From IMG/VR virus record IMGVR_UViG_3300039384_000089: DNA of 15,484 bases; one strand, written 5' to 3'. A program made the position numbers and the translations under genes. Numbering within the stretch: the stretch's first letter is position 1; each line of letters opens with the position of its first letter. The DNA comes from a virus. Lineage: Duplodnaviria; Heunggongvirae; Uroviricota; Caudoviricetes. The notes beneath the pieces were generated by a model. The model did not search any database and was not told the DNA's origin. It worked only from the letters and a program-made list of their open reading frames with translations. Positions 648-11,082 of the stretch are shown here, in pieces.

Positions 648-1565
648 ATGAACATCGAAAAAAGCAGATTAATTTCTGAGGCCGCCCCTCATCTGAACGC
701 CTCTCTGGGCACAATTAACGGTAATGAATTTGCCGCAATTGTCCCGGTTATTCCTGGTCACATCGGTGGGCGTGAAACCAATATTGTTAGCGCAAAAGCG
801 TTACACAAAGCGTTGGGCGTGGGAAAAGACTTCTCTACATGGATCACTGATCGCATCTCTGAATATGACTTCACCATTGGGCACGATTACTCAGTCCATA
901 AAACAATTTCCCCAAATTTGGGGAAAAGCCCGAATGGCACGGCTTACAGCAAGATTAAGCAGTCTGGCAGACCCGGCAAAGACTATCTGTTAAGTGTCGG
1001 AATGGCGAAAGAGCTGGCAATGATCGAACGCAATGATCAGGGTCGCGCTATCCGTCGTTATTTCATCCAGTGCGAGGAAGAATTACAGCGTAGCGTGCCT
1101 GAAATCGCCGCCCGCTATCGTCGCCAGCTAAAAGCCCGTATCAGTGCCGCAAACAACTTTAAGCCAATGTGCGATGCGCTGAATATGGCCCGTGCCGAGA
1201 TGGGTAAAACGACGCAGCAACACCACTACACAAACGAGAGCAATATGATTTCTCGTATCGTTCTTGGTGGGCTAACTGCTAAACAGTGGGCGCGGATAAA
1301 TGGCTATTCTGGCGAACCTCGCGACCATATGAACGCAGAACAGCTTGAGCACCTCTCATATCTCGAAAGCACCAATATCACGTTAATTGATATGGGCATG
1401 GAATATGAGCAGCGCAAAGGAGAACTCACCCGCCTGTCGCAACGCTGGCTCCCCNNNNNNNNNNNNNNNNNNNNNNNNNNNNNNNNNNNNNNNNNNNNNN
1501 NNNNNNNNNNNNNNNNNNNNNNNNNNNNNNNNNNNNNNNNNNNNNNNNGTCTCACAACCGAGTGA
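648..1565 (+). CDS. putative phage antirepressor-like DNA-binding protein, interrupted by an N-run
   Basis: GGAGA 7 nt upstream of ATG at 648. The N-terminal half resembles AntA/KilA-N-type antirepressors by eye. The 3' end at 1565 assumes the N-run preserves frame; if the gap length is arbitrary the gene may instead end at TAA 1639-1641 in another frame. Confidence 0.45.
   Translation: MNIEKSRLISEAAPHLNASLGTINGNEFAAIVPVIPGHIGGRETNIVSAKALHKALGVGKDFSTWITDRISEYDFTIGHDYSVHKTISPNLGKSPNGTAYSKIKQSGRPGKDYLLSVGMAKELAMIERNDQGRAIRRYFIQCEEELQRSVPEIAARYRRQLKARISAANNFKPMCDALNMARAEMGKTTQQHHYTNESNMISRIVLGGLTAKQWARINGYSGEPRDHMNAEQLEHLSYLESTNITLIDMGMEYEQRKGELTRLSQRWLPXXXXXXXXXXXXXXXXXXXXXXXXXXXXXXXXLTTE
1455..1548. 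other. run of 94 N (assembly gap or masked sequence)
   Basis: Directly visible in the sequence; appears as 32 X in the ORF track. Confidence 0.99.
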
Positions 1566-2082
1566 CGTTTTATCGCGACGGGTATCAATCGCCATGCGTA
1601 CAACCGCTGGCGCGCTTCATGAAGGAGTTCGCGGAGGTTAACAAATGCTAACCGTCCAGAAGAAGATATTTTCACTGGCTGGTATGTCGCCAAAATCCAG
1701 CAATATGACAGCAAAGTCAGGCATTAATACAGCAGATACAAGCAAAGTTTGTCATTTGCTGGTGGTAGGAGCGGATGCCTTAACCATGTCAGAAATTACG
1801 GTCGATGGTGTTAGCGTTGAGAAGGTCAGCGGCTGCGCCAGAGAATTTCTGGTCGTAGATGGCTTTCTCTTCTCGCGTAGTGACTCCACAAAAACCTTCG
1901 TCCATGCGCGTGACGTTAACGAAATGAGCGCGATGTATTGTGCATCTGGTGCTTCCAATAGTGAGTTTTCGGAGTCCATAAAAAAGAGCTTGCCGTTATG
2001 CGGCAACACGGTTTATGGTTATAAGGCACCTCATAAAACGGGTGCCGGGTTTCGCAGCCCGGAAATGTACGAGGCGACACAT

Positions 2083-2104
2083 GACGCGCCGAGCGTCTTT
2101 TTTT
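2083..2104 (+). terminator. intrinsic terminator-like hairpin (GACGC-gccga-GCGTC) followed by T7
   Basis: 5-bp stem, 5-nt loop, then TTTTTTT at 2098-2104. Confidence 0.5.
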
Positions 2105-2144
2105 GTGCCGTTAGCCAGACTCACACTTTTTTCAGTGGTGTGGT

Positions 2145-2150
2145 TATAAT
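2145..2150 (+). promoter_or_regulatory. candidate -10 hexamer TATAAT downstream of the terminator
   Basis: Perfect TATAAT about 155 nt upstream of the 2307 start. No convincing -35. Confidence 0.3.
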
Positions 2151-2242
2151 CCGCGTCGCTTGCAAAATTATGGTGGGCTGGACAGGGCAGCCGAAAGGCT
2201 GGCCGGTTTCCTTGTACGCCGGTACTGCGAACTCTGTTCAGT

Positions 2243-2276
2243 CCACCACCAGCGAGTTTCGCAGCTCCGGTGGTGG
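2243..2276 (+). promoter_or_regulatory. leader RNA hairpin (CCACCACC ... GGTGGTGG) just upstream of the RBS of the 2307 gene
   Basis: 8-bp perfect inverted repeat with an 18-nt loop that contains one copy of the GTTTCGCAGC direct repeat. No T-run follows. Confidence 0.4.
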
Positions 2277-2306
2277 GAAGAATTCCCAGTACAAGGAGGC
2301 TGCCAC

Positions 2307-2501
2307 ATGCTGGCTACTACCCCTACCCAAAAACCGCAATTTATCTGGATTATCGCCGCAGTTCGCCGCGATTGCCCGACAATTACCGCCAAAATTCATC
2401 ATATTGCTGCCGAGTCTGAACGCGATGCTCGCCGTTCTCTGGTGCGCGATCACGTCTGCTTTTTTGCTGGTCGTATCCGCATGGAGGTGGCACATGATTA
2501 A
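2307..2501 (+). CDS. small protein (64 aa), possibly Icd-like host cell-division inhibitor
   Basis: AAGGAGG (2293-2299) sits 7 nt before ATG 2307. Stop overlaps the next start (ATGATTAA). The product name is from memory of similar prophage proteins, not a search. Confidence 0.5.
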   Translation: MLATTPTQKPQFIWIIAAVRRDCPTITAKIHHIAAESERDARRSLVRDHVCFFAGRIRMEVAHD

Positions 2502-2712
2502 AACCTACGATGTGCATATGGATCCCCTCGAACGCACAAGCCAGATCATCACACTGACAGAAGTGATTAATGACATTCTGGTGAGCAACTCTCCCTCACG
2601 AGACGAAAAACTGAAGGCGTTACTCGCGATATTGGATCTCGCCGTTCGTGACGTTCATTTCCTGCTGGAAGGTGGCGAAATGCCAGTAAAAACGGGGGCA
2701 ACCAATGAATAA
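2494..2712 (+). CDS. hypothetical small protein (72 aa)
   Basis: GGAGGTGG immediately upstream of ATG 2494. Overlapping stop/start with both neighbours. Confidence 0.55.
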   Translation: MIKTYDVHMDPLERTSQIITLTEVINDILVSNSPSRDEKLKALLAILDLAVRDVHFLLEGGEMPVKTGATNE

Positions 2713-3984: not shown

Positions 3985-6747
3985 ATGCGAAACATTGATC
4001 TTATCCGTCAGGTTATCAGTGCGTCTGAAAACAACTGGCCTCATGTGCTGGGCTGCCTGAACATAAATGTCCCTGACTCTCCGCGCCGTCATGCTCCCTG
4101 CCCTGCATGTGGGGGCAAAGATCGATTCCGGTTCGATGACAACGGGCGCGGTAGCTTCATCTGTAATCAGTGCGGCGCTGGTGATGGGCTGGATTTAATT
4201 AAACGCGTAAATAACTGCGACACAACAGAGGCGGCGCTTCTTGTCGCTGATGTTCTGGGTATTGATTACCGGGCAGCGCAATCCGACCCGGTGGCAGCGA
4301 GCCATAGAAGGGAGCAACTGGAAGCTGACCGCCAGCAGCGTGAGCAGGAGCGCCAGAAACAGGCAGCAGAGGACGCAGAGCAGCGAAGGGCTACGTTTGC
4401 CCATCTGTATGCCGGAATGCGCCAGAGTGCCACACAGGGCGAATCTGATTACCTGCAATCAAAAGGGCTGACCGGGTTTAACTATCCGGTTATGCCGGAT
4501 GGTTCGTTATTGCTGGAGCTGGTGGACGAATCCGGCGCAGTGGCAGCAGCGCAAACCATTACACCGCAGGGAGAGAAGCGACTCCTGACAGGTTCAGCAA
4601 AGCGCGGGGCATATCACGCCGTAAACGCGCCAGAATCGCCGCAGAGCGTTTTAATTGCCGAGGGGCTGGCAACCGCTTTATCAGTCCACCTGATGCGCCC
4701 TGACGCGCTGACAGTGTGCGCCATTGATGCGGGCAACCTGCTACCCGTTGCCGAAGTGATGCGCCGGATATATCCAGCCACGCAGATTATCATTGCCGCA
4801 GATAACGACCACCAGCAGGACGAACAGGCGAACACGGGCAAAGATGCCGCAGAGAAAGCCGCCTTATCCGTGGCTGGCTGGGTGGCACTGCCGCCGACAG
4901 ACTACAAAGCCGACTGGGACGACTACCGCCAGCAAAACGGGCTGGAAGTCGCTACGGCTGCGTTTAACGATTCGATGTACCAGATTCAAGGGGAAGCCGT
5001 GAAACCGCGATTGCAAGCCATTGAGGGCGGTAAAACTGACCATCCAGAGAAAGATCCACTAAAACCCCACATTGAGAGCCGCAAAGATGGCGTTTTCTGG
5101 GTAACGCCGAAGGTGGACAAGGAAAGCGGGGAGATCGTCAACGCTGAAAGCTGGTTATGTTCCCCGTTGGAGGTTATCGGCACGGGACGCGACGACAAAG
5201 ATCAGTATCTTATTATCTCATGGCTGGCATTCGGTGCAGGCATACCGACAACAGCGGCTATCCCGCTGGCTGATATTGGCGAGCGTGAAGGCTGGCGCAC
5301 CCTGAAAGCTGGTGGGGTAAATGTCACGACCAAAAGCAGCCTCAGAGCAATACTGGCAGACTGGCTACAACGCAGTGGCTCTCGTGAATTGTGGCGTGTT
5401 GCTCATGCCACTGGCTGGCAATGCGGAGCGTACATCATGCCTGATGGGGAAATCATCGGAACACCTGAAAATCCTGTGCTGTTCAGCGGGAGAAGCTCAG
5501 CCGCAGCCGGATATACCGTCTCAGGGAGCGCGAAAAGCTGGCGTGATAACGTGGCGCGTCTGGCCTTTGGTAACTATTCAATGATGACCGGGATCGGCGC
5601 AGCACTGGCAGCGCCATTGATTGGGCTGGTGGGCGCTGACGGGTTCGGCATTCATTTCTATGAGCAGTCGAGCGCAGGTAAGACCACCACGGCAAACGTG
5701 GCGAGCAGCTTATACGGCAACCCTGATTTACTGCGGCTGACGTGGTACGGAACCGCGCTGGGGCTGGCAAATGAAGCTGCCGCCCACAATGACGGACTAA
5801 TGCCGCTTGATGAAGTTGGTCAGGGCGCTGATCCTGTCAGTGTTTCACAGTCTGCCTATGCGTTATTTAACGGTGTAGGGAAACTGCAAGGCGCTAAAGA
5901 TGGTGGAAACCGGGATCTAAAACGCTGGCGCACAGTGGCAATCAGCACCGGAGAAATGGATTTAGAAACATTTATCGCTACTTCCGGGCGAAAAACCAAA
6001 GCCGGGCAACTGGTGCGACTGCTGAATATTCCGTTGAGTAAAGCAGTACGCTTTCACGATTACCAGAACGGAAAACAGCACGCAGACGCACTGAAAGACG
6101 CTTACCAGCATCACCATGGCGCAGCCGGGCGTGAGTGGATTAAATGGCTGGCAGACCACCAGCAACAGGCTATTAAAACTGTTCGTGATTGCGAAAGCAG
6201 ATGGAGAAGCCTGATCCCATCCGATTATGGTGAGCAGGTTCACCGTGTAGCCGCGCGATTTGCCATTCTGGAGGCCGCATTGTTGTTAGGCGAGGTTGTA
6301 ACAGGCTGGGATGCTCAGACATGCCGTGATGCGATACAGCACAGCTATAACGCATGGTTGCGCGAGTTCGGCACAGGTAACAAAGAGCATCAGCAGATTA
6401 TTGAACAAACGGAGGCATTTCTTAATGCCTATGGGCTTAGCCGTTTTGCACCATTTCCATACAGCCCGGCAGATTTGCCCATCAAAGATTTAGCCGGATA
6501 CCGTCAGCGTGGAGAACATGACGAAAGCCCAATGATTTTCTACACATTCCCGGCCACATTTGAAAAGGAGATCGCATGTGGTTTCAACGCAAAACAGTTT
6601 GCTGAAGTGTTGAAAAAAGCCGGGATGCTAACCCCACCAAACAGCGGTCGTGGATACCAAAGAAAATCACCACGTATTCAGGGACGACAAATAAACGTTT
6701 ATGTACTCAATTACCAGCCAGGAGATTATAACTCATCTGAAGAATGA
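3985..6747 (+). CDS. P4 alpha-like bifunctional DNA primase/helicase (zinc-binding domain, TOPRIM, P-loop NTPase)
   Basis: 920-aa ORF. Cys cluster CPACGG...CNQCG near the N-terminus. TOPRIM-like acidic motifs (LIAEGLATAL, IIAADNDHQ). Walker A-like SSAGKTT in the C-terminal half. Confidence 0.88.
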   Translation: MRNIDLIRQVISASENNWPHVLGCLNINVPDSPRRHAPCPACGGKDRFRFDDNGRGSFICNQCGAGDGLDLIKRVNNCDTTEAALLVADVLGIDYRAAQSDPVAASHRREQLEADRQQREQERQKQAAEDAEQRRATFAHLYAGMRQSATQGESDYLQSKGLTGFNYPVMPDGSLLLELVDESGAVAAAQTITPQGEKRLLTGSAKRGAYHAVNAPESPQSVLIAEGLATALSVHLMRPDALTVCAIDAGNLLPVAEVMRRIYPATQIIIAADNDHQQDEQANTGKDAAEKAALSVAGWVALPPTDYKADWDDYRQQNGLEVATAAFNDSMYQIQGEAVKPRLQAIEGGKTDHPEKDPLKPHIESRKDGVFWVTPKVDKESGEIVNAESWLCSPLEVIGTGRDDKDQYLIISWLAFGAGIPTTAAIPLADIGEREGWRTLKAGGVNVTTKSSLRAILADWLQRSGSRELWRVAHATGWQCGAYIMPDGEIIGTPENPVLFSGRSSAAAGYTVSGSAKSWRDNVARLAFGNYSMMTGIGAALAAPLIGLVGADGFGIHFYEQSSAGKTTTANVASSLYGNPDLLRLTWYGTALGLANEAAAHNDGLMPLDEVGQGADPVSVSQSAYALFNGVGKLQGAKDGGNRDLKRWRTVAISTGEMDLETFIATSGRKTKAGQLVRLLNIPLSKAVRFHDYQNGKQHADALKDAYQHHHGAAGREWIKWLADHQQQAIKTVRDCESRWRSLIPSDYGEQVHRVAARFAILEAALLLGEVVTGWDAQTCRDAIQHSYNAWLREFGTGNKEHQQIIEQTEAFLNAYGLSRFAPFPYSPADLPIKDLAGYRQRGEHDESPMIFYTFPATFEKEIACGFNAKQFAEVLKKAGMLTPPNSGRGYQRKSPRIQGRQINVYVLNYQPGDYNSSEE

Positions 6748-7332: not shown

Positions 7333-7506
7333 ATGGCTATTTCAGTAAAGCCAGTATTGATAAGTGAGAAACAAATGGAAGCGATAAAGAAAATTCAGGA
7401 GGAGCAGCGTAAAAAATCAGAGGTAGGAGTTGCGCCAACGATCCACGAAATTGCTCGGGGATTAATGGATAAGGCGCTGACTTACACTTTAACTGGACGT
7501 GGGTAA
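7333..7506 (+). CDS. small protein (57 aa), possible ribbon-helix-helix-type regulator
   Basis: Below the 60-aa cutoff of the ORF track. AAGGGGG RBS 4-11 nt before ATG 7333. Strand-helix-turn-helix pattern read by eye (KPVLISEKQMEAIKK...GVAPTIHEIARGLMDKAL). Stop lies 4 nt before the next start. Confidence 0.5.
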   Translation: MAISVKPVLISEKQMEAIKKIQEEQRKKSEVGVAPTIHEIARGLMDKALTYTLTGRG

Positions 7507-7510
7507 ATCA

Positions 7511-8977
7511 ATGGCTACGTGGCAACAGGGTATTAATTCTGGTGGTTTTCTGGCTGGCATCGGTACGCAAAATGAGAATGCGCCAAAGGCAAGCGACATT
7601 AACGCAACGCTTGGTCTGATCCGCGAAAACAATGAACTGGCTCGATCAGGTGCAAATAACGTTGCTCTGACAGGTCTTCGTGGTCTGGCTGGAGTTGCTG
7701 ATATTTATAAGCAGCAGCAACAGCAGGAGCGTAAAGCGGCATTCCAGAAAGGTTATGCAGATGCTTATGCGTCCGGCGACAGGGAGAAGATGCGTAATCT
7801 TATTACAGCATTCCCAGAAGAGTTTGAGGAAGTCCGTAAAGGCATGGGGTATGTCGATGACGCCCAGCGGGATGATTTTGGCAATCTGGCGCTTAAAGCA
7901 CAGGTAGCTTCGTCGCTTGGTCCGGGCGCATTTGGCAGGTTCATGATGGATAACGAAAAGGAGATGCGTCGTTTAGGTATCCCTCCAGAAACTATTGCTG
8001 AAATGCAGGTTAATGACCCGCAGGGCTTCCAGCACTTCGCAGGTAATCTGGCACTGTTTTCTCTCGGCCATGAGAAGTACTTCGATATCAAAGATCAAAT
8101 GGAAGGTCGGGATATTGAACGTGGCAAGTTGGCAGAGACAATCCGCAGCAATCAGGCCAGCGAAGCACTTCAGGCGAGAGGGCAGGATATTAGCCGAGCA
8201 AATGCGTTAACGTCAGCATATGCACCAACAGCAGCAATGCAGAATTACAATCAGTACGCTCAAATGTTAAAGGCGGATCCAGAGGGGGCGGCGGCATTTG
8301 CGGCAGCGGCTGGAATTAATACAAACGCCAAAAAATTAATGAGTGTTAGAGAAAACGATGATGGCACTGTCACAAAATACTACACAGACGGAAGTGAAGA
8401 GCAGGGAAAACTAAACCAGCCAATATCTGGAGATGGGTTTCGTCCAATAGCTTTGCCAACAGCCCAAAAGATCATGGAAAAGTCGCCAGAAGGGGCTAAA
8501 AAAGCTGCTGGATTTGCATACAGGGTTAGGGATGCTCTTGATTCAATAGATACACTGAAAGACCAGCTTAGCCCACAGCGAGTGGCGATCATTAATAATG
8601 CTTTGGGTAATGGGACGCTGGCTAACTTAACGCTCAGCCCAACAGAGCAGCAATACGTTGTTAATGCTAATGACGCAATAATGGCAATACTCCGTCAGGA
8701 AACAGGGGCATCTATCCTACCAGCTGAAATGTCCAAATATTATCAAATGTATTTCCCTCAGCCTGGTGATTCCACAAAAACCATTGATACCAAGCGCCGG
8801 AAGATGGAAAACCAGTTCAATTCGCTGAAAGCTGCTTCTGGTCGAGCTTATGATGCTTTGCGGGTTATTTCAGCAGTTGACAGAGGAACTTCTTCTTCGT
8901 CGCAGACATTGCCGCAATCTGAGCAGGTATCACAGCCAGCAGCCAGCAGTAATTTTTCTTCACTATGGGGTGATTAA
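7511..8977 (+). CDS. cargo protein B (488 aa), Ala/Gln-rich, largely helical, unknown function
   Basis: Long ORF; ATG 7511 preferred over the GTG at 7499 used by the ORF track. Stop overlaps the next start (TAATG). No catalytic motif recognised. Confidence 0.8.
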   Translation: MATWQQGINSGGFLAGIGTQNENAPKASDINATLGLIRENNELARSGANNVALTGLRGLAGVADIYKQQQQQERKAAFQKGYADAYASGDREKMRNLITAFPEEFEEVRKGMGYVDDAQRDDFGNLALKAQVASSLGPGAFGRFMMDNEKEMRRLGIPPETIAEMQVNDPQGFQHFAGNLALFSLGHEKYFDIKDQMEGRDIERGKLAETIRSNQASEALQARGQDISRANALTSAYAPTAAMQNYNQYAQMLKADPEGAAAFAAAAGINTNAKKLMSVRENDDGTVTKYYTDGSEEQGKLNQPISGDGFRPIALPTAQKIMEKSPEGAKKAAGFAYRVRDALDSIDTLKDQLSPQRVAIINNALGNGTLANLTLSPTEQQYVVNANDAIMAILRQETGASILPAEMSKYYQMYFPQPGDSTKTIDTKRRKMENQFNSLKAASGRAYDALRVISAVDRGTSSSSQTLPQSEQVSQPAASSNFSSLWGD

Positions 8978-11082
8978 TGGCTAAAGCATGGAAAGATGTT
9001 ATCGCTTCTCCACAGTATCAGGCGTTAGCACCAGAACAAAAAGCGCAGGCTCAGGAGCAATACTTCAATGAAGTCGTGGCCCCGCAAGCCGGAGAAAGTG
9101 TAGAGCAGGCTAAGCAGGCTTTTTATGCTGCCTATCCACTACCATCAACGAATGAAATAGACCGATCCCAATCAGCAACTCAAAATATTCAACATACATC
9201 ATCTGATAATTCTCTTGCGTCAGGGTATGCAAAGTTAGCTACTCAGCAAAGAGAGGGGCTTGAGCGTTCAGCAGAACAGGGAGCCAGTCTTGGGGCTGCG
9301 ATGCGCGATGCTATAACAGGCGAAAGCCGAATGACTCCAGAGATGGAGAGACTGCAAAATGTCGCCTCTGCCCCAGAATTGAACTCACTAAGCATGGATG
9401 CCCTAAAGGCTGGATGGTCTCAACTTTTCGGCTCTGACGCGTCTCAGGAAAAGATTCTTCAGGGGATGGGGGCGACATTAAGGCAGGATGAGAAGGGGAA
9501 TACTATCGTTTCTCTGCCATCAGGTGATTATGCCCTGAACAAGCCGGGTTTATCACCGCAAGACCTGACTTCGTTTCTTGCTAATGCGTTGGCGTTTACA
9601 CCAGCGGGCAGGGCTGGAACGGTGCTTGGTGCCATAGGAAAATCAGCAGCTACAGATTTAGCACTACAGGGAGCCACCAGCCTTGCTGGTGGAGAAGATA
9701 TTGATCCGTTACAAACGGTAATTTCTGCTGGCATTGGTGGTATTGGTAAGGGGCTGGAAAATACAGCGAGTGCGGTTTCGAGGGCTGTTCGTGGTGATAT
9801 GTCGCCTGAAGCAAAGGCTGCTGTCGACTTTGCATCGGAAAGAAATCTGCCGTTAATGACCAGTGACATGCTGAAAGATAAAACCTTTATGCAGAGTCAG
9901 GCTCAGACATTAGGCGAAAGAGTTCCTTTTTTTGGAACCGGTAAGAATCGGCTGAATCAACAACAAGCACGAGAAAATTTAGTCAGAACATTTAGCGATG
10001 GTCTGGGTGGCATTTCTGATAAACAGCTTTATGAATCTGCGACTAAAGGGCAACAAAAATTCATTGAGGCAGCAGGAAAGCGATATAACCGCATAATTGA
10101 CGCTATGGGGGATACCCCTGTCGATCTCTCAAACACGGTAAAAGCTATCGACAATCAGATTGCCGTGTTAAGCCGCCCGGGCAAATCTCAGGATAGAGCC
10201 GCGGTAAAAGTCTTGCAGCAATTTAAAGACGATATCACCAGCGGACCAAATGACCTGCGTCTGGCGAGGGAAAACAGAACCGATCTTCGAAAGCGATTTA
10301 TGGCGTCATCTGACACTGTTGATAAAGATACGCTCCAGAAAGCCAGCGATATTATCTACAAGGCATATACGGCGGATATGAAAAAAGCCGTAGCCAAAAA
10401 TCTTGGAGCAGACGAAGCCATTAATATGGCAAGGGTTGATCGCTCATGGTCTAAATTCAATGACATGATGGGAAGAACGCGCGTTCAAAAGGCAATAGCC
10501 AGCGGCAAGGCCACGCCTGAGGATGTAACAAAACTCGTTTTTAGCCAAAGCCCATCAGAACGTTCTCAGCTTTACAGGCTTCTGGATGACAATGGTAGGC
10601 AAAACGCACGAGCAGCCATAGTTCAGAATGCTGTAGATAAGGCGACTGATCCGTCTGGAAATATCAGTGTTGAGAAGTTTATTAATGCGTTACACCGGAA
10701 CAGGAAGCAATCAGCAACTTTCTTTAAAGGCGTACATGGAAAGGAACTGGACGGCGTTATTAAATACCTCAACGATACAAGACACGCGGCAAAAGCGAAC
10801 GTTCAAAACTTAAATGGTCAGCAGCTTTATGGATTGTTAGTTGGTGGTGGCATCATAAACGCAGCAGTATTAGCGGGGATGCTAAAAACGGCTGCGTTTG
10901 TTGTTCCTGCTGCTGGTGCCGTAGGCGGAGCAGCGAAGGCATACGAAAGCCCTGTTATACGAAATGCCTTGTTACGTCTGGCAAATACGCCAAAAGGTAG
11001 CACAGCATATGACAGAGCGATCAGTACGGTCACACAATCGCTCACCAGAGTCGCACAGGCATCACAAAAAGAAGTTCAATAA
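8977..11082 (+). CDS. cargo protein C (701 aa), unknown function, with a C-terminal Gly/Ala-rich hydrophobic hairpin
   Basis: Long ORF coupled to B. Hydrophobic segment LYGLLVGGGIINAAVLAGMLKTAAFVVPAAGAVGGAA at about nt 10815-10935. A second Gly-rich stretch (ISAGIGGIGKG) mid-protein. No canonical Walker A. Confidence 0.85.
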   Translation: MAKAWKDVIASPQYQALAPEQKAQAQEQYFNEVVAPQAGESVEQAKQAFYAAYPLPSTNEIDRSQSATQNIQHTSSDNSLASGYAKLATQQREGLERSAEQGASLGAAMRDAITGESRMTPEMERLQNVASAPELNSLSMDALKAGWSQLFGSDASQEKILQGMGATLRQDEKGNTIVSLPSGDYALNKPGLSPQDLTSFLANALAFTPAGRAGTVLGAIGKSAATDLALQGATSLAGGEDIDPLQTVISAGIGGIGKGLENTASAVSRAVRGDMSPEAKAAVDFASERNLPLMTSDMLKDKTFMQSQAQTLGERVPFFGTGKNRLNQQQARENLVRTFSDGLGGISDKQLYESATKGQQKFIEAAGKRYNRIIDAMGDTPVDLSNTVKAIDNQIAVLSRPGKSQDRAAVKVLQQFKDDITSGPNDLRLARENRTDLRKRFMASSDTVDKDTLQKASDIIYKAYTADMKKAVAKNLGADEAINMARVDRSWSKFNDMMGRTRVQKAIASGKATPEDVTKLVFSQSPSERSQLYRLLDDNGRQNARAAIVQNAVDKATDPSGNISVEKFINALHRNRKQSATFFKGVHGKELDGVIKYLNDTRHAAKANVQNLNGQQLYGLLVGGGIINAAVLAGMLKTAAFVVPAAGAVGGAAKAYESPVIRNALLRLANTPKGSTAYDRAISTVTQSLTRVAQASQKEVQ

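What the first reader, a model, noticed from the sequence alone, without database searches (positions are those of the whole stretch)
1645..2306. Leader region with terminator, promoter-like -10, hairpin and GTTTCGCAGC direct repeats: possible P4-type RNA-mediated immunity region
Between the antirepressor-like gene and the first RBS-supported small gene lies about 660 bp with several regulatory-looking elements. There is an intrinsic terminator at 2083-2104, a TATAAT at 2145-2150 and a GNRA-loop hairpin (CAGCC-GAAA-GGCTG, about 2195-2208). The 10-nt direct repeat GTTTCGCAGC occurs at 2049 and 2256, the second copy inside the 2243-2276 hairpin loop, and a partly complementary CTGCGAAC sits at 2226-2233. 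In phage P4, immunity depends on a small CI RNA pairing with repeated seqA/seqB sites to cause premature termination in the leader of the primase operon, and this arrangement is reminiscent of that. Oddly, a strongly RBS-supported ATG at 1645 opens a frame with no stop for 355 codons across all of these elements.
Basis: partly seen in the sequence, partly recalled or inferred. Interest (0 to 1): 0.5.

Follow-up and report, generated by a model that had tools for sequence, protein, structure and literature searches.

The report
P4-type antisense-RNA immunity switch
This stretch is the RNA-based immunity switch of a phage-satellite island in E. coli, the same kind that phages P4 and P1 use: a small antisense RNA, its repeated target sites and a long reading frame laid over them; it is a well-known system, so the finding is real but ordinary.

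Summary
All the listed elements exist; two coordinates are slightly off. They form a textbook P4/P1-type immunity module. Rfam gives two hits above its curated thresholds: isrK (P4 "seqA" leader, 2026-2103, ending in the 2083-2104 terminator) and C4 antisense RNA (P4 "CI RNA", 2166-2253, containing the GAAA hairpin). Phage P4 gives the same pair.

The GTTTCGCAGC repeats are the a1 and a2 (seqA/seqC) targets of the C4 segment CUGCGAA.

In 64 diverse relatives all four pairings, the C4 stem and the 2243-2276 hairpin covary (0/500 shuffles).

The "odd" 355-codon frame matches P4's eta, a frame kept open across the RNA elements in 88 of 96 loci. Variation within it shows no codon periodicity. Here a 1-nt deletion shifts it out of the icd frame, and it runs on into the next gene.

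The TATAAT is not conserved.

Side finding: 1793-1899 is an antisense fragment of a P22-like small-terminase gene starting at the pac site.

Verdict: interpretation supported; a new member of a known kind; low interest.

The parts
1469..1651 (+). DUF4222 gene, partly N-masked. Its TAA stop (1649-1651) overlaps the ATG at 1645 (ATGCTAA). This is the upstream gene to which the long frame is translationally coupled.
   Evidence: RefSeq annotation of 99.6-99.9% identical islands. The overlap is kept as ATGA in the diverged allele L244.
1645..2712 (+). Eta-like 355-codon open frame. It is made of three parts: an N-terminal extension (1645-2013), the frame over the RNA elements (2014-2340, the Pfam Phage_ASH match), and then the +1 frame of icd fused to the small gene at 2494-2712.
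   Evidence: phrog_6928 profile 31-149. The frame is open in 88/96 DNA-selected relatives. There is no codon periodicity over 2026-2306. PGAP calls it 'ash family protein' in NZ_CP104117.1.
1793..1899 (-). Fragment of a P22-like small-terminase gene (gene 3). Its pac-site-equivalent 22-mer is at 1878-1899 (GAAGGTTTTTGTGGAGTCACTA on the minus strand).
   Evidence: 87% identical to P22 gene 3, ending exactly at the annotated pac site. The 22-mer is identical to that of full-length terS genes in L248/L251/L252, and 1793-1910 is 92% identical to them.
1990..2019 (+). Leader promoter equivalent to P4 PLE: -35 TTGCCG (1990-1995), an 18-nt spacer, -10 TATGGT (2014-2019). The predicted transcription start is about 2026.
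   Evidence: It aligns with the family consensus GGCTTGC...GTATAGT and with the P4 row in alignment A1. It matches only 8/12 consensus positions, so the simple promoter scan did not report it. Function is inferred.
2026..2104 (+). isrK/seqA-like leader RNA. Hairpin 1 is 2026-2045. Hairpin 2 is 2046-2061 and shows target a1 (UUCGCAG, 2051-2057) in its loop. Target b1 is GUACGAGG (2067-2074). The intrinsic terminator is 2083-2097 plus U7 (equivalent to P4 t1).
   Evidence: Rfam RF01394, 69 bits. Hairpin 1 has 6/6 covarying pairs and the terminator is 93.8% paired. a':a1 is 98.2% paired and b':b1 about 95% paired, both with covariation.
2135..2160 (+). Spacer hairpin (2135-2144 / 2151-2160) with TATAAT (2145-2150) in its loop.
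   Evidence: Fold energy -10.5 kcal/mol, z = -2.3. Among the 64 aligned relatives TATAAT is present only in this type and in L173; it is also kept in the near-identical E. coli island L244.
2166..2253 (+). C4/CI-type antisense RNA. The basal stem is 2171-2187/2232-2248. Hairpin 1 is 2188-2201 (GAAA loop). Hairpin 2 is 2202-2223, with b' in its loop (UUUCCUUGUAC, 2207-2217). The single-stranded a' is CUGCGAA (2225-2231).
   Evidence: Rfam RF01695, 81.1 bits. Minimum free energy -45.8 kcal/mol, z = -4.9. The basal stem is 98.8% paired with 8/17 pairs covarying.
2243..2276 (+). Alternative hairpin. The 3' arm of the C4 stem pairs with 2269-2276 and shows target a2 (UUCGCAG, 2258-2264, inside repeat copy 2256-2265) in the loop. 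Its position corresponds to P4 t4.
   Evidence: z = -3.8. 96.8% paired with 6/8 pairs covarying. a':a2 is 98.2% paired with 6/7 pairs covarying.
2289..2299 (+). Target b2, GUACAAGGAGG, which contains the Shine-Dalgarno sequence AAGGAGG (2293-2299) of the icd-like gene.
   Evidence: All 11 positions pair with the C4 loop 2207-2217. The helices are 83-85% paired with covariation. Cognate duplex energy is -13.3 against -7.1 kcal/mol for non-cognate.
2307..2501 (+). Icd/Kil-like gene (64 aa). It is the first gene under C4 control and lies out of frame with the eta-like ORF.
   Evidence: NCBIfam NF033153, 71.7 bits. 44% identical to P4 Kil. RefSeq annotates it as 'host cell division inhibitor Icd-like'.
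2494..2712 (+). Small gene (72 aa) that overlaps the end of icd by 8 nt (ATGATTAA). It sits where P4 epsilon sits, and it forms the C-terminus of the 355-codon frame.
   Evidence: RefSeq CDS in L002. P4 has the same overlap geometry (8175/8168). No family hit.

Best explanation
Window 1990-2306 is the immunity switch of a P4-related (PICI-type) satellite island. It is homologous to P4 PLE-seqA-cI-seqC and to the a1b1-c4-a2b2-icd part of P1 immI.

Quiescent state (inferred by homology to P4 and P1):
- A constitutive leader promoter (-35 at 1990, -10 at 2014) starts transcription near 2026.
- The leader carries targets a1 and b1 and an intrinsic terminator (2083-2104).
- Read-through transcripts are processed into a stable, roughly 80-nt C4/CI-type RNA (about 2171-2250).
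- Two single-stranded segments of this RNA, b' (UUUCCUUGUAC) and a' (CUGCGAA), pair in trans with a1/b1 in the leader. In P4 this raises termination at the leader terminator and so autoregulates CI.
- The same segments pair with a2/b2 downstream. This covers the ribosome-binding site of the icd/kil-like gene and promotes premature termination. Candidate sites are the 2243-2276 hairpin and Rho-dependent termination on the untranslated RNA.
- As a result, icd and the downstream replication genes (primase 3985-6747) stay off.

Induced state (inferred):
- Transcription enters from the upstream alpA-antA/B-DUF4222 operon.
- Ribosomes cross from DUF4222 into the 355-codon eta-like frame through the ATGCTAA overlap.
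- They translate through the terminator, the targets and the C4 sequence. This melts the structures, blocks pairing and prevents termination, so this transcript escapes immunity.

Shown here: the identity of the parts, their structures, the cognate complementarity, and selection for an open frame. Inferred from P4/P1: the promoter, RNA processing, termination control, and the role of translation.
For: - Rfam C4 and isrK hits above their gathering scores.
- The same pair, plus c4-a1b1, in P4 at the known CI/seqA positions.
- The literature equates IsrK with seqA and C4 with CI RNA, and describes eta/kil, the internal constitutive promoter, coupling to alpA and translation-dependent read-through.
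- In 106 unique loci found by a DNA pattern, each element's own a'/b' binds its own four targets far better than a'/b' from other elements. Cognate beats at least 90% of non-cognates in 81-100 of 106 loci.
- Covariation in a 64-sequence alignment: C4 basal stem 98.8% paired, a':a1 and a':a2 98.2%, b':b1 about 95%, b':b2 about 84%, and the 2243-2276 hairpin 96.8%. In all three counts 0/500 shuffles reached the observed percentage paired or covariation score, and sliding the 3' partner by 1-3 columns dropped pairing to 29-52%.
- b2 contains the icd Shine-Dalgarno sequence.
- The first gene is Icd/Kil-like.
- The eta frame is open for at least 60 codons upstream in 88/96 loci, against 4-5/96 for the other two frames.
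- The start codon overlaps or abuts the stop of an upstream ORF in 52/88 loci, most often as ATGA.
- Variation over 2026-2306 has no 3-periodicity (0.80/0.84/0.86 bits by codon position). The icd/kil gene, in its own frame, does (0.76/0.70/1.21).
Against: - There are no expression data for this island.
- The leader promoter matches only 8/12 consensus positions and the promoter scan did not call it.
- The c4-a1b1 model scores 22.5 bits here, below its 46.7 threshold.
- The a' pairings are only 7 bp long.
- Unlike P4, the icd/kil gene is not nested in the eta frame, so Eta here cannot end in a Kil domain.
- A Rho-dependent site equivalent to timm cannot be seen in sequence.
- Variation in the N-terminal 1645-1900 part of the frame shows no clear coding signature in the one diverged allele examined.
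Confidence: 0.88

Rival explanations
1. The 1645-2712 frame encodes a genuine folded 'Ash family' regulatory protein (a Bro-network member), and the RNA-like motifs inside it are incidental.
For: Pfam Phage_ASH scores 99.4 bits. phrog_6928 'transcriptional repressor' scores 100.6 bits. PGAP annotates a 355-aa 'ash family protein' in NZ_CP104117.1. The frame is open in 88/96 relatives.
Against: The matched part (aa 124-232) is exactly the isrK and C4 RNA genes. The old P4 'cI protein' ORF matches the same Pfam model. Variation there has no codon periodicity. Instead it follows RNA base-pairing, including compensatory changes between sites up to about 170 nt apart. PGAP usually flags the region as a partial pseudogene. 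The N-terminal 123 aa have no family hit.
Confidence: 0.03
2. The short terminated leader RNA (2026-2104) acts mainly in trans. It could be a sponge for C4 RNA, or, like Gifsy-1 IsrK, an activator that opens the long read-through transcript for translation. On this view it is not merely a cis target for autoregulated termination.
For: In Gifsy-1, IsrK exists as a short sRNA that activates translation of its own read-through isoform, and a processed downstream RNA (STnc1160) shares complementarity with it. IsrK-like sequences are required in S. Typhi P4-like prophages. Here the leader carries both a1 and b1, so it could titrate C4.
Against: Nothing tested here separates cis from trans action. 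P4 genetics, as summarised and as I recall from Briani et al. 2000, assign seqA a cis role at the t1 terminator. This rival is not exclusive of the main explanation.
Confidence: 0.15
3. TATAAT at 2145-2150 is a second, independent promoter that makes C4 RNA downstream of the leader terminator. C4 supply would then not depend on read-through of 2083-2104.
For: It is a perfect -10 hexamer about 20 nt upstream of the C4 stem. It is conserved in the close E. coli relative L244 and in L173. P1 is said to have a constitutive promoter close to c4 (my own recollection, not checked).
Against: There is no acceptable -35 (CACACT), and the scan did not report it. The hexamer sits in the loop of a spacer hairpin. 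It is absent from 62 of 64 aligned relatives, including P4.
Confidence: 0.25

Closest known systems
Phage P4 immunity region (PLE - seqA - t1 - cI/CI RNA - seqC - t4/timm, with the nested eta/kil genes)
   Same: - Same order of parts and the same two Rfam families, each above its gathering score in both.
- Targets lie upstream and downstream of the antisense RNA, each shown in a hairpin loop.
- The leader has an intrinsic terminator.
- The first gene is Icd/Kil-like.
- A long open frame starts at the end of an upstream gene and covers all the RNA elements.
- The next gene overlaps by 8 nt.
- A primase operon lies downstream.
   Different: - The specificity sequences differ: a' is CUGCGAA here and UUCUCAC in P4; b' is UUCCUUGUAC here and AUCCUGUGAA in P4. 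The two elements are therefore expected to be heteroimmune.
- The spacer between terminator and C4 is 62 nt here and about 107 nt in P4.
- icd/kil is shifted out of the eta frame by a 1-nt deletion (CCACCATG to CCACATG). The frame is therefore 355 codons rather than 197-199 and ends in the next gene.
- The frame is coupled to a DUF4222 gene, not to the alpA homolog.
- It carries an extra N-terminal extension of about 300 nt that includes a terminase/pac fragment.
- The primase is of the TOPRIM/DUF927 type.
- No sid, delta or psu genes appear in the RefSeq annotation of the island.
Phage P1/P7 immI (a1 b1 - c4 - a2 b2 - icd - ant)
   Same: - A C4-family RNA with two recognition segments, a' and b'.
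- Two target pairs, with b2 over the ribosome-binding site of icd.
- Nucleotide similarity of 2009-2348 to the P1-like phages RCS47 and D6, including icd.
   Different: No antirepressor gene is coupled downstream of icd. An AntA/AntB gene lies upstream instead. The downstream operon is for replication, as in P4.
Salmonella Gifsy-1 IsrK - STnc1160 locus
   Same: The leader RNA belongs to the isrK family, and a processed RNA lies downstream of it.
   Different: In Gifsy-1 the module controls orf45-anrP and, through them, AntQ. IsrK is described there as a trans-activator of its own long isoform. No such activity is known or tested here.
Immunity RNAs in the 'Bro zone' of Gram-negative PICIs (Mageeney et al. 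2023)
   Same: The island has the same four-zone layout: int and alpA; Bro/Ant genes with C4 and isrK hits inside a Phage_ASH gene; the primase; and captured helper late genes.
   Different: This particular island, next to yicC, was not examined in that paper as far as I read it. The captured late genes here are P22-type ejection proteins (gp20, gp16).

Membership tests
Rfam RF01695 C4 antisense RNA (includes P4 CI RNA) | Covariance-model score above the curated gathering score | tested here: met
   81.1 bits against a threshold of 45, full-length model 1-87 at 2166-2253.
Rfam RF01695 C4 antisense RNA (includes P4 CI RNA) | A long basal stem enclosing two hairpins, supported by covariation | tested here: met
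   The minimum-free-energy fold equals the Rfam consensus, z = -4.9. The basal stem is 98.8% paired and 8/17 pairs change on both sides. The two inner hairpins are invariant because they were used as the search pattern.
Rfam RF01695 C4 antisense RNA (includes P4 CI RNA) | Single-stranded segments a' and b' complementary to targets on the controlled mRNA | tested here: met
   a':a2 and b':b2 pair in the window and covary across 64 relatives. Cognate pairing is stronger than non-cognate.
Rfam RF01394 isrK / P4 seqA leader | Score above the gathering score; two 5' hairpins followed by an intrinsic terminator | tested here: met
   69 bits against a threshold of 50 at 2026-2103. The terminator was found independently. 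Hairpin 1 covaries at 6/6 pairs.
Rfam RF03163 c4-a1b1 | Score above the gathering score | tested here: not met
   22.5 bits against a threshold of 46.7 at 2013-2065. Close relatives L173 and L186 reach 50.4, and P4 reaches 44.1. The a1/b1 function is nonetheless supported by covariation.
P4-type immunity system | Target copies both upstream (seqA) and downstream (seqC) of the antisense RNA gene, in one leader | tested here: met
   a1/b1 are at 2051-2074 and a2/b2 at 2258-2299, on either side of C4.
P4-type immunity system | A constitutive promoter inside eta, upstream of seqA | tested here: inconclusive
   TTGCCG-18-TATGGT aligns with the conserved family and P4 motif. It is only an 8/12 consensus match, and no transcript data exist.
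P4-type immunity system | CI RNA produced by processing of the leader transcript (RNase P, PNPase), and antisense-dependent termination at t1, t4 and timm | not testable with these tools
   Only the structural counterparts can be seen: the t1-like terminator, and a t4-like hairpin with covariation.
P4-type immunity system | Nested genes: kil is the C-terminal part of the long eta frame | tested here: not met
   The long frame is present. The icd/kil homolog, however, is in frame +2 relative to it (8 of 85 loci are like this), against in-frame in 75 of 85 loci including P4.
P1 immI operon | c4 followed by icd and a translationally coupled antirepressor gene | tested here: not met
   icd is present. 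The genes downstream are small hypotheticals and a primase, and AntA/AntB is upstream.
Pfam PF10554 Phage_ASH (as a protein family) | HMM score above the gathering score | tested here: met
   99.4 bits against a threshold of 26, aa 124-232.
Pfam PF10554 Phage_ASH (as a protein family) | Protein-level purifying selection (excess variation at third codon positions) | tested here: not met
   Entropy by codon position is 0.80/0.84/0.86 bits over 2026-2306, against 0.76/0.70/1.21 in the icd/kil control.

The most novel reading that the evidence does not exclude
In this island lineage three functions are stacked in one kilobase.

(i) The island has placed the pac site of its P22-like helper (1878-1899, inside a 107-bp antisense terS fragment) within the translated immunity leader. 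This would let the helper terminase package the island even though the RefSeq annotation of the island shows no terminase gene.

(ii) A 1-nt deletion has uncoupled Eta from Icd/Kil. The anti-termination frame now runs 355 codons, through icd in its +1 frame and into the gene at the epsilon position.

(iii) More generally, Pfam Phage_ASH would not be a protein domain. It would be the shadow of two conserved RNA genes plus selection to keep one frame open.
Probability: 0.4. Interest if true: 0.5.

Novelty: new member of a known kind. Interest (0 to 1): 0.25.

Why it matters
For annotation:
- This region should be labelled as two RNA genes (isrK/seqA-like and C4/CI-like), their four target sites and an Icd/Kil gene.
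- At present PGAP labels it either as an "ash family protein" pseudogene or as a 355-aa protein, depending on the genome.

For biology:
- The a'/b' sequences define an immunity specificity different from P4's.
- The many a'/b' combinations seen among relatives suggest modular reassortment of specificities among satellites and phages.

None of this changes the current understanding of the system.

The pac-site fragment would matter more if it is functional. It would name the helper lineage and explain how this island is packaged, given that the RefSeq annotation of the island shows no terminase gene.

Tried and rejected
- My first Pfam scan of the small gene used 2308-2502, which is the wrong frame, and found nothing. 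The correct gene is 2307-2501 and is Icd-like.
- One Pfam call failed on a wrong frame, and two paper look-ups failed on terms that were too short.
- The pattern GGCTGGCCGGTN{8,13}GCCGGTA is G+C-rich. In genome contigs it returned mostly chance hits in high-GC bacteria, and only about 17 loci were true relatives. The viral-contig scan was much cleaner.
- Folding whole C4 against whole flanks as a duplex was uninformative, because the C4 stem arms themselves pair with the flanks. I replaced it with duplexes of the short a'/b' oligos.
- A regular expression for RBS plus ATG missed the icd gene in 58 of 96 loci. I replaced it with tblastn.
- The simple promoter scan reported neither the leader promoter nor the TATAAT. 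Its only call (1817-1846) is within the number of calls expected by chance.
- Sabbattini 1995 (PMC176756) is not held. Details of the P4 t1/t4 terminators therefore rest on summaries and on my own recollection of Briani et al. 2000.
- I considered that the 355-codon length itself needs a special explanation, and rejected this. The +1 frame of icd/kil genes is stop-free in 44 of 65 unique relatives, and the next gene normally starts in that frame. Any -1 shift before the icd ATG would therefore often create such a fusion.
- I did not run the large protein searches or structure prediction, because the DNA-based comparison had already answered the ORF question.
Full report
**Context.** The window is part of an E. 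coli chromosomal island of roughly 16 kb, lying between yicC and dinD. Its gene order is: integrase, AlpA-type regulator, AntA/AntB antirepressor, a DUF4222 gene, the region of the finding, an Icd-like gene, small genes, a TOPRIM/DUF927 primase, and two P22-type ejection-protein genes. This matches the four-zone layout described for Gram-negative phage-inducible chromosomal islands related to satellite P4. DNA similar to 1550-2950 occurs in 1118 of 5426 complete E. coli genomes, and 479 of them have a place that covers at least 80% of the query. Bases 1455-1548 are masked by N. Homologous islands show that the mask hides most of a DUF4222 gene (1469-1651).

**The observation.**
- The repeats GTTTCGCAGC are at 2049 and 2256.
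- The terminator is at 2083-2104.
- TATAAT is at 2145-2150.
- The hairpin 2243-2276 has the second repeat copy in its loop.
- The 355-codon frame starts at ATG 1645, behind GGAGG.
- Two coordinates are slightly off. The GAAA hairpin is at 2188-2201, and CTGCGAAC is at 2225-2232.

A 10-mer occurring twice is not significant by itself. What follows gives it meaning.

**What the parts are.** Rfam gives two full-length hits above its curated thresholds.
- C4 antisense RNA at 2166-2253 (81.1 bits, threshold 45). The GAAA hairpin is the first inner hairpin of this RNA.
- isrK at 2026-2103 (69 bits, threshold 50). The terminator is the 3' end of this RNA.

Phage P4 gives the same two hits on its own sequence, at its CI RNA and at its seqA leader. 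It also gives a hit to the family "a1, b1 targets of C4". Two papers state that IsrK and C4 are the structural homologs of P4 seqA and CI RNA. The C4 sequence folds into the consensus shape at -45.8 kcal/mol, with z = -4.9 against shuffles.

**The pairings.** C4-family RNAs have two recognition segments.
- Segment a' is CUGCGAA (2225-2231). These are a1 (2051-2057), in the loop of the second leader hairpin, and a2 (2258-2264), in the loop of the 2243-2276 hairpin.
- Segment b' is the loop UUUCCUUGUAC (2207-2217). It pairs with GUACGAGG (b1, 2067-2074). It also pairs at all eleven positions with GUACAAGGAGG (b2, 2289-2299), which contains the Shine-Dalgarno sequence of the gene starting at 2307.

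P4 has different sequences at all six places, yet each remains complementary to its own partner.

**Test across relatives.** I collected relatives using a DNA pattern that fixes only the two inner C4 hairpin stems and leaves the recognition segments free. This gave 113 true loci, 106 of them unique, with dozens of different a'/b' combinations.
- Each element's own a' and b' bind its own four target regions far better than a'/b' from other elements. For b':b2 the duplex energy is -13.3 kcal/mol cognate against -7.1 non-cognate. Cognate beats at least 90% of non-cognates in 81 to 100 of 106 loci, depending on the site.
- In a 64-sequence alignment with sequences less than 93% identical to each other, I counted pairs for the structures I named.
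  - C4 basal stem: 98.8% paired, 8 of 17 pairs changed on both sides.
  - Leader hairpin 1: 6 of 6 pairs covarying.
  - a':a1: 98.2% paired. a':a2: 98.2% paired.
  - b':b1: about 95% paired. b':b2: about 84% paired.
  - The 2243-2276 hairpin: 96.8% paired, 6 of 8 pairs covarying.
  - In all three counts, 0 of 500 shuffles reached the observed percentage paired or covariation score. Sliding the 3' partner by 1 to 3 columns dropped pairing to 29-52%.

The 2243-2276 hairpin re-uses the 3' arm of the C4 stem. The two structures are therefore mutually exclusive, and both are conserved.

**Promoters.**
- The alignment shows a conserved promoter-like motif just upstream of the leader. The family consensus is GGCTTGC ... 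GTATAGT. P4 has TTGCCT-18-TATAGT, and the window has TTGCCG (1990-1995)-18-TATGGT (2014-2019). This places the transcription start at about 2026, the first base of the isrK model. It corresponds to the constitutive promoter inside P4 eta. It is a weak consensus match, so its function is inferred.
It has no usable -35. Among the 64 aligned sequences it occurs only in this type and in L173. I rate it a possible but unsupported extra promoter.

**The first controlled gene.** The gene at 2307-2501 matches NCBIfam phage_ICD_like and is 44% identical to P4 Kil. The P4 eta translation matches the same model at its C-terminus. P4 Kil and P1 Icd-type proteins therefore belong to one family, and the module here has the order a1 b1 - C4 - a2 b2 - icd, as in both P1 and P4.

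**The long frame.** In P4, a frame called eta (197-199 codons) starts at the end of the alpA homolog and runs across the internal promoter, seqA, cI and seqC. It ends as kil. Translation of eta from an upstream late promoter prevents termination (citing Forti et al. 1999). The window's frame is the counterpart.
- Pfam Phage_ASH matches aa 124-232, that is nt 2014-2340, which are exactly the RNA genes. The old P4 "cI protein" ORF matches the same model.
- phrog_6928, a 202-position profile, is matched by ORF aa 106-233 (profile 31-149). Separately, the Icd-like protein matches it at profile 138-194.
- In the DNA-selected relatives this frame is open for at least 60 codons upstream of C4 in 88 of 96 loci, against 4-5 of 96 for the other two frames.
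- Its first ATG lies at the stop of an upstream ORF in 52 of 88 loci, most often as ATGA. Here the overlap is ATGCTAA with the DUF4222 gene. In a diverged E. coli allele it is ATGA.
- Variation over 2026-2306 has no three-base periodicity in this frame (0.80/0.84/0.86 bits by codon position). The icd/kil gene, in its own frame, does (0.76/0.70/1.21).

The frame is therefore kept open, but its amino-acid sequence over the RNA elements is not conserved as a protein would be. This fits a frame whose translation, rather than its product, matters. It also suggests that Phage_ASH largely reflects RNA conservation.

**Why 355 codons.** In 75 of 85 relatives icd/kil is in frame with eta, as in P4. In 8, including the window, it is not. 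Compared with its closest C4 type (L173, CCACCATGGCT), the window reads CCACATGCTGGCT. One base is missing before the ATG, and icd has an extra CTG codon. The eta frame then reads icd in its +1 frame. That frame is stop-free in 44 of 65 unique icd/kil genes (the +2 frame in none). The next gene normally starts in it through an ATGnnTAA overlap, as P4 epsilon does. The fusion down to 2712 is therefore an expected by-product of a single shift. At least two other lineages, L152 and L217, show similar fusions. Frames of 355-356 codons occur only in near-identical islands, so there is no widely conserved 355-aa protein.

**Mechanism.** See the best explanation for the full account. Shown here are the identity and structure of the RNAs, the cognate complementarity to four targets (one of which is the icd ribosome-binding site), and selection for an open, coupled frame across them. 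Inferred from P4 and P1 are constitutive leader transcription, processing to a stable C4 RNA, autoregulation at the leader terminator, repression of icd and the replication operon by pairing at a2/b2, and escape by translation of the long frame when transcription comes from the upstream operon.

**Side finding.**
- Window 1793-1899 is 87% identical to phage P22 gene 3 (small terminase), on the opposite strand. The homology ends exactly at the annotated 22-bp P22 pac site.
- The pac-equivalent 22-mer here is GAAGGTTTTTGTGGAGTCACTA. It differs from P22 at 7 positions. It is identical to the same position in full-length 164-aa terS genes on three viral contigs, and 1793-1910 is 92% identical to those genes.
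- In all five other satellite contigs with this 22-mer that I scanned with Rfam, it sits in the same place, roughly 130 nt upstream of the isrK leader.
- Together with the P22-type gp20 and gp16 genes in the island, this suggests a P22-like helper whose pac site the island carries. I did not find this described in the one paper I checked for it. I did not search further.

**Verdict.** The region is a standard member of the known IsrK/C4 (P4 seqA/CI, P1 c4) immunity family. It has its own specificity sequences and a frame-shifted eta/icd arrangement. It is ordinary for a specialist, and the pac fragment is the only part that may deserve follow-up.

Noticed in passing
window 1793-1899 (minus strand); pac-equivalent 22-mer at 1878-1899: A 107-bp fragment of a P22-like small-terminase gene, beginning at the position of the annotated P22 pac site. 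Its 22-mer is identical to that of full-length terS genes in IMG/VR contigs L248, L251 and L252. It may be the helper's packaging signal, carried inside the eta-like frame in antisense orientation.
   Followed up: partly
window 7499-8977 and 8977-11082: P22-type DNA-ejection proteins. The first is gp20-like, with Pfam Inj_translocase at 282 bits. The second belongs to the gp16 family and is a pseudogene in the near-identical RefSeq island. These late genes look captured from a P22-like helper.
   Followed up: partly
window 1990-2006, with the A/T run at 1980-1989: The palindrome TTGCCG-TTATG-CGGCAA overlaps the -35 of the leader promoter. On the minus strand it reads as a terminator-like hairpin followed by T6. 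Relatives also have inverted repeats around the -35 (for example CCCCGGC...GCCGGGG in L115 and L152). It could be an operator or a terminator for antisense transcription.
   Followed up: no
window 2307-2501, and 65 related icd/kil genes: The +1 frame of icd/kil genes is free of stop codons in 44 of 65 unique relatives, and the +2 frame in none. I did not work out whether this reflects composition or selection.
   Followed up: partly
Pfam PF10554 (Phage_ASH); window 2014-2340; L003 8168-8584: The Pfam family matches the translation of the isrK and C4 RNA genes, and also the obsolete P4 'cI protein' CDS. Variation in it shows no codon periodicity. RefSeq annotation of this region is inconsistent between genomes: a partial pseudogene, a 355-aa protein, or an Icd-like gene that is present or absent.
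   Followed up: yes
113 related loci (L004-L243): The a' and b' segments occur in many different combinations; for example, the same a' is found with ten or more different b' loops. This suggests modular reassortment of immunity specificities.
   Followed up: partly
window 1455-1548: A run of 94 N masks most of the DUF4222 gene and the end of the AntA/AntB gene. As a result the ORF list splits these genes artificially.
   Followed up: yes
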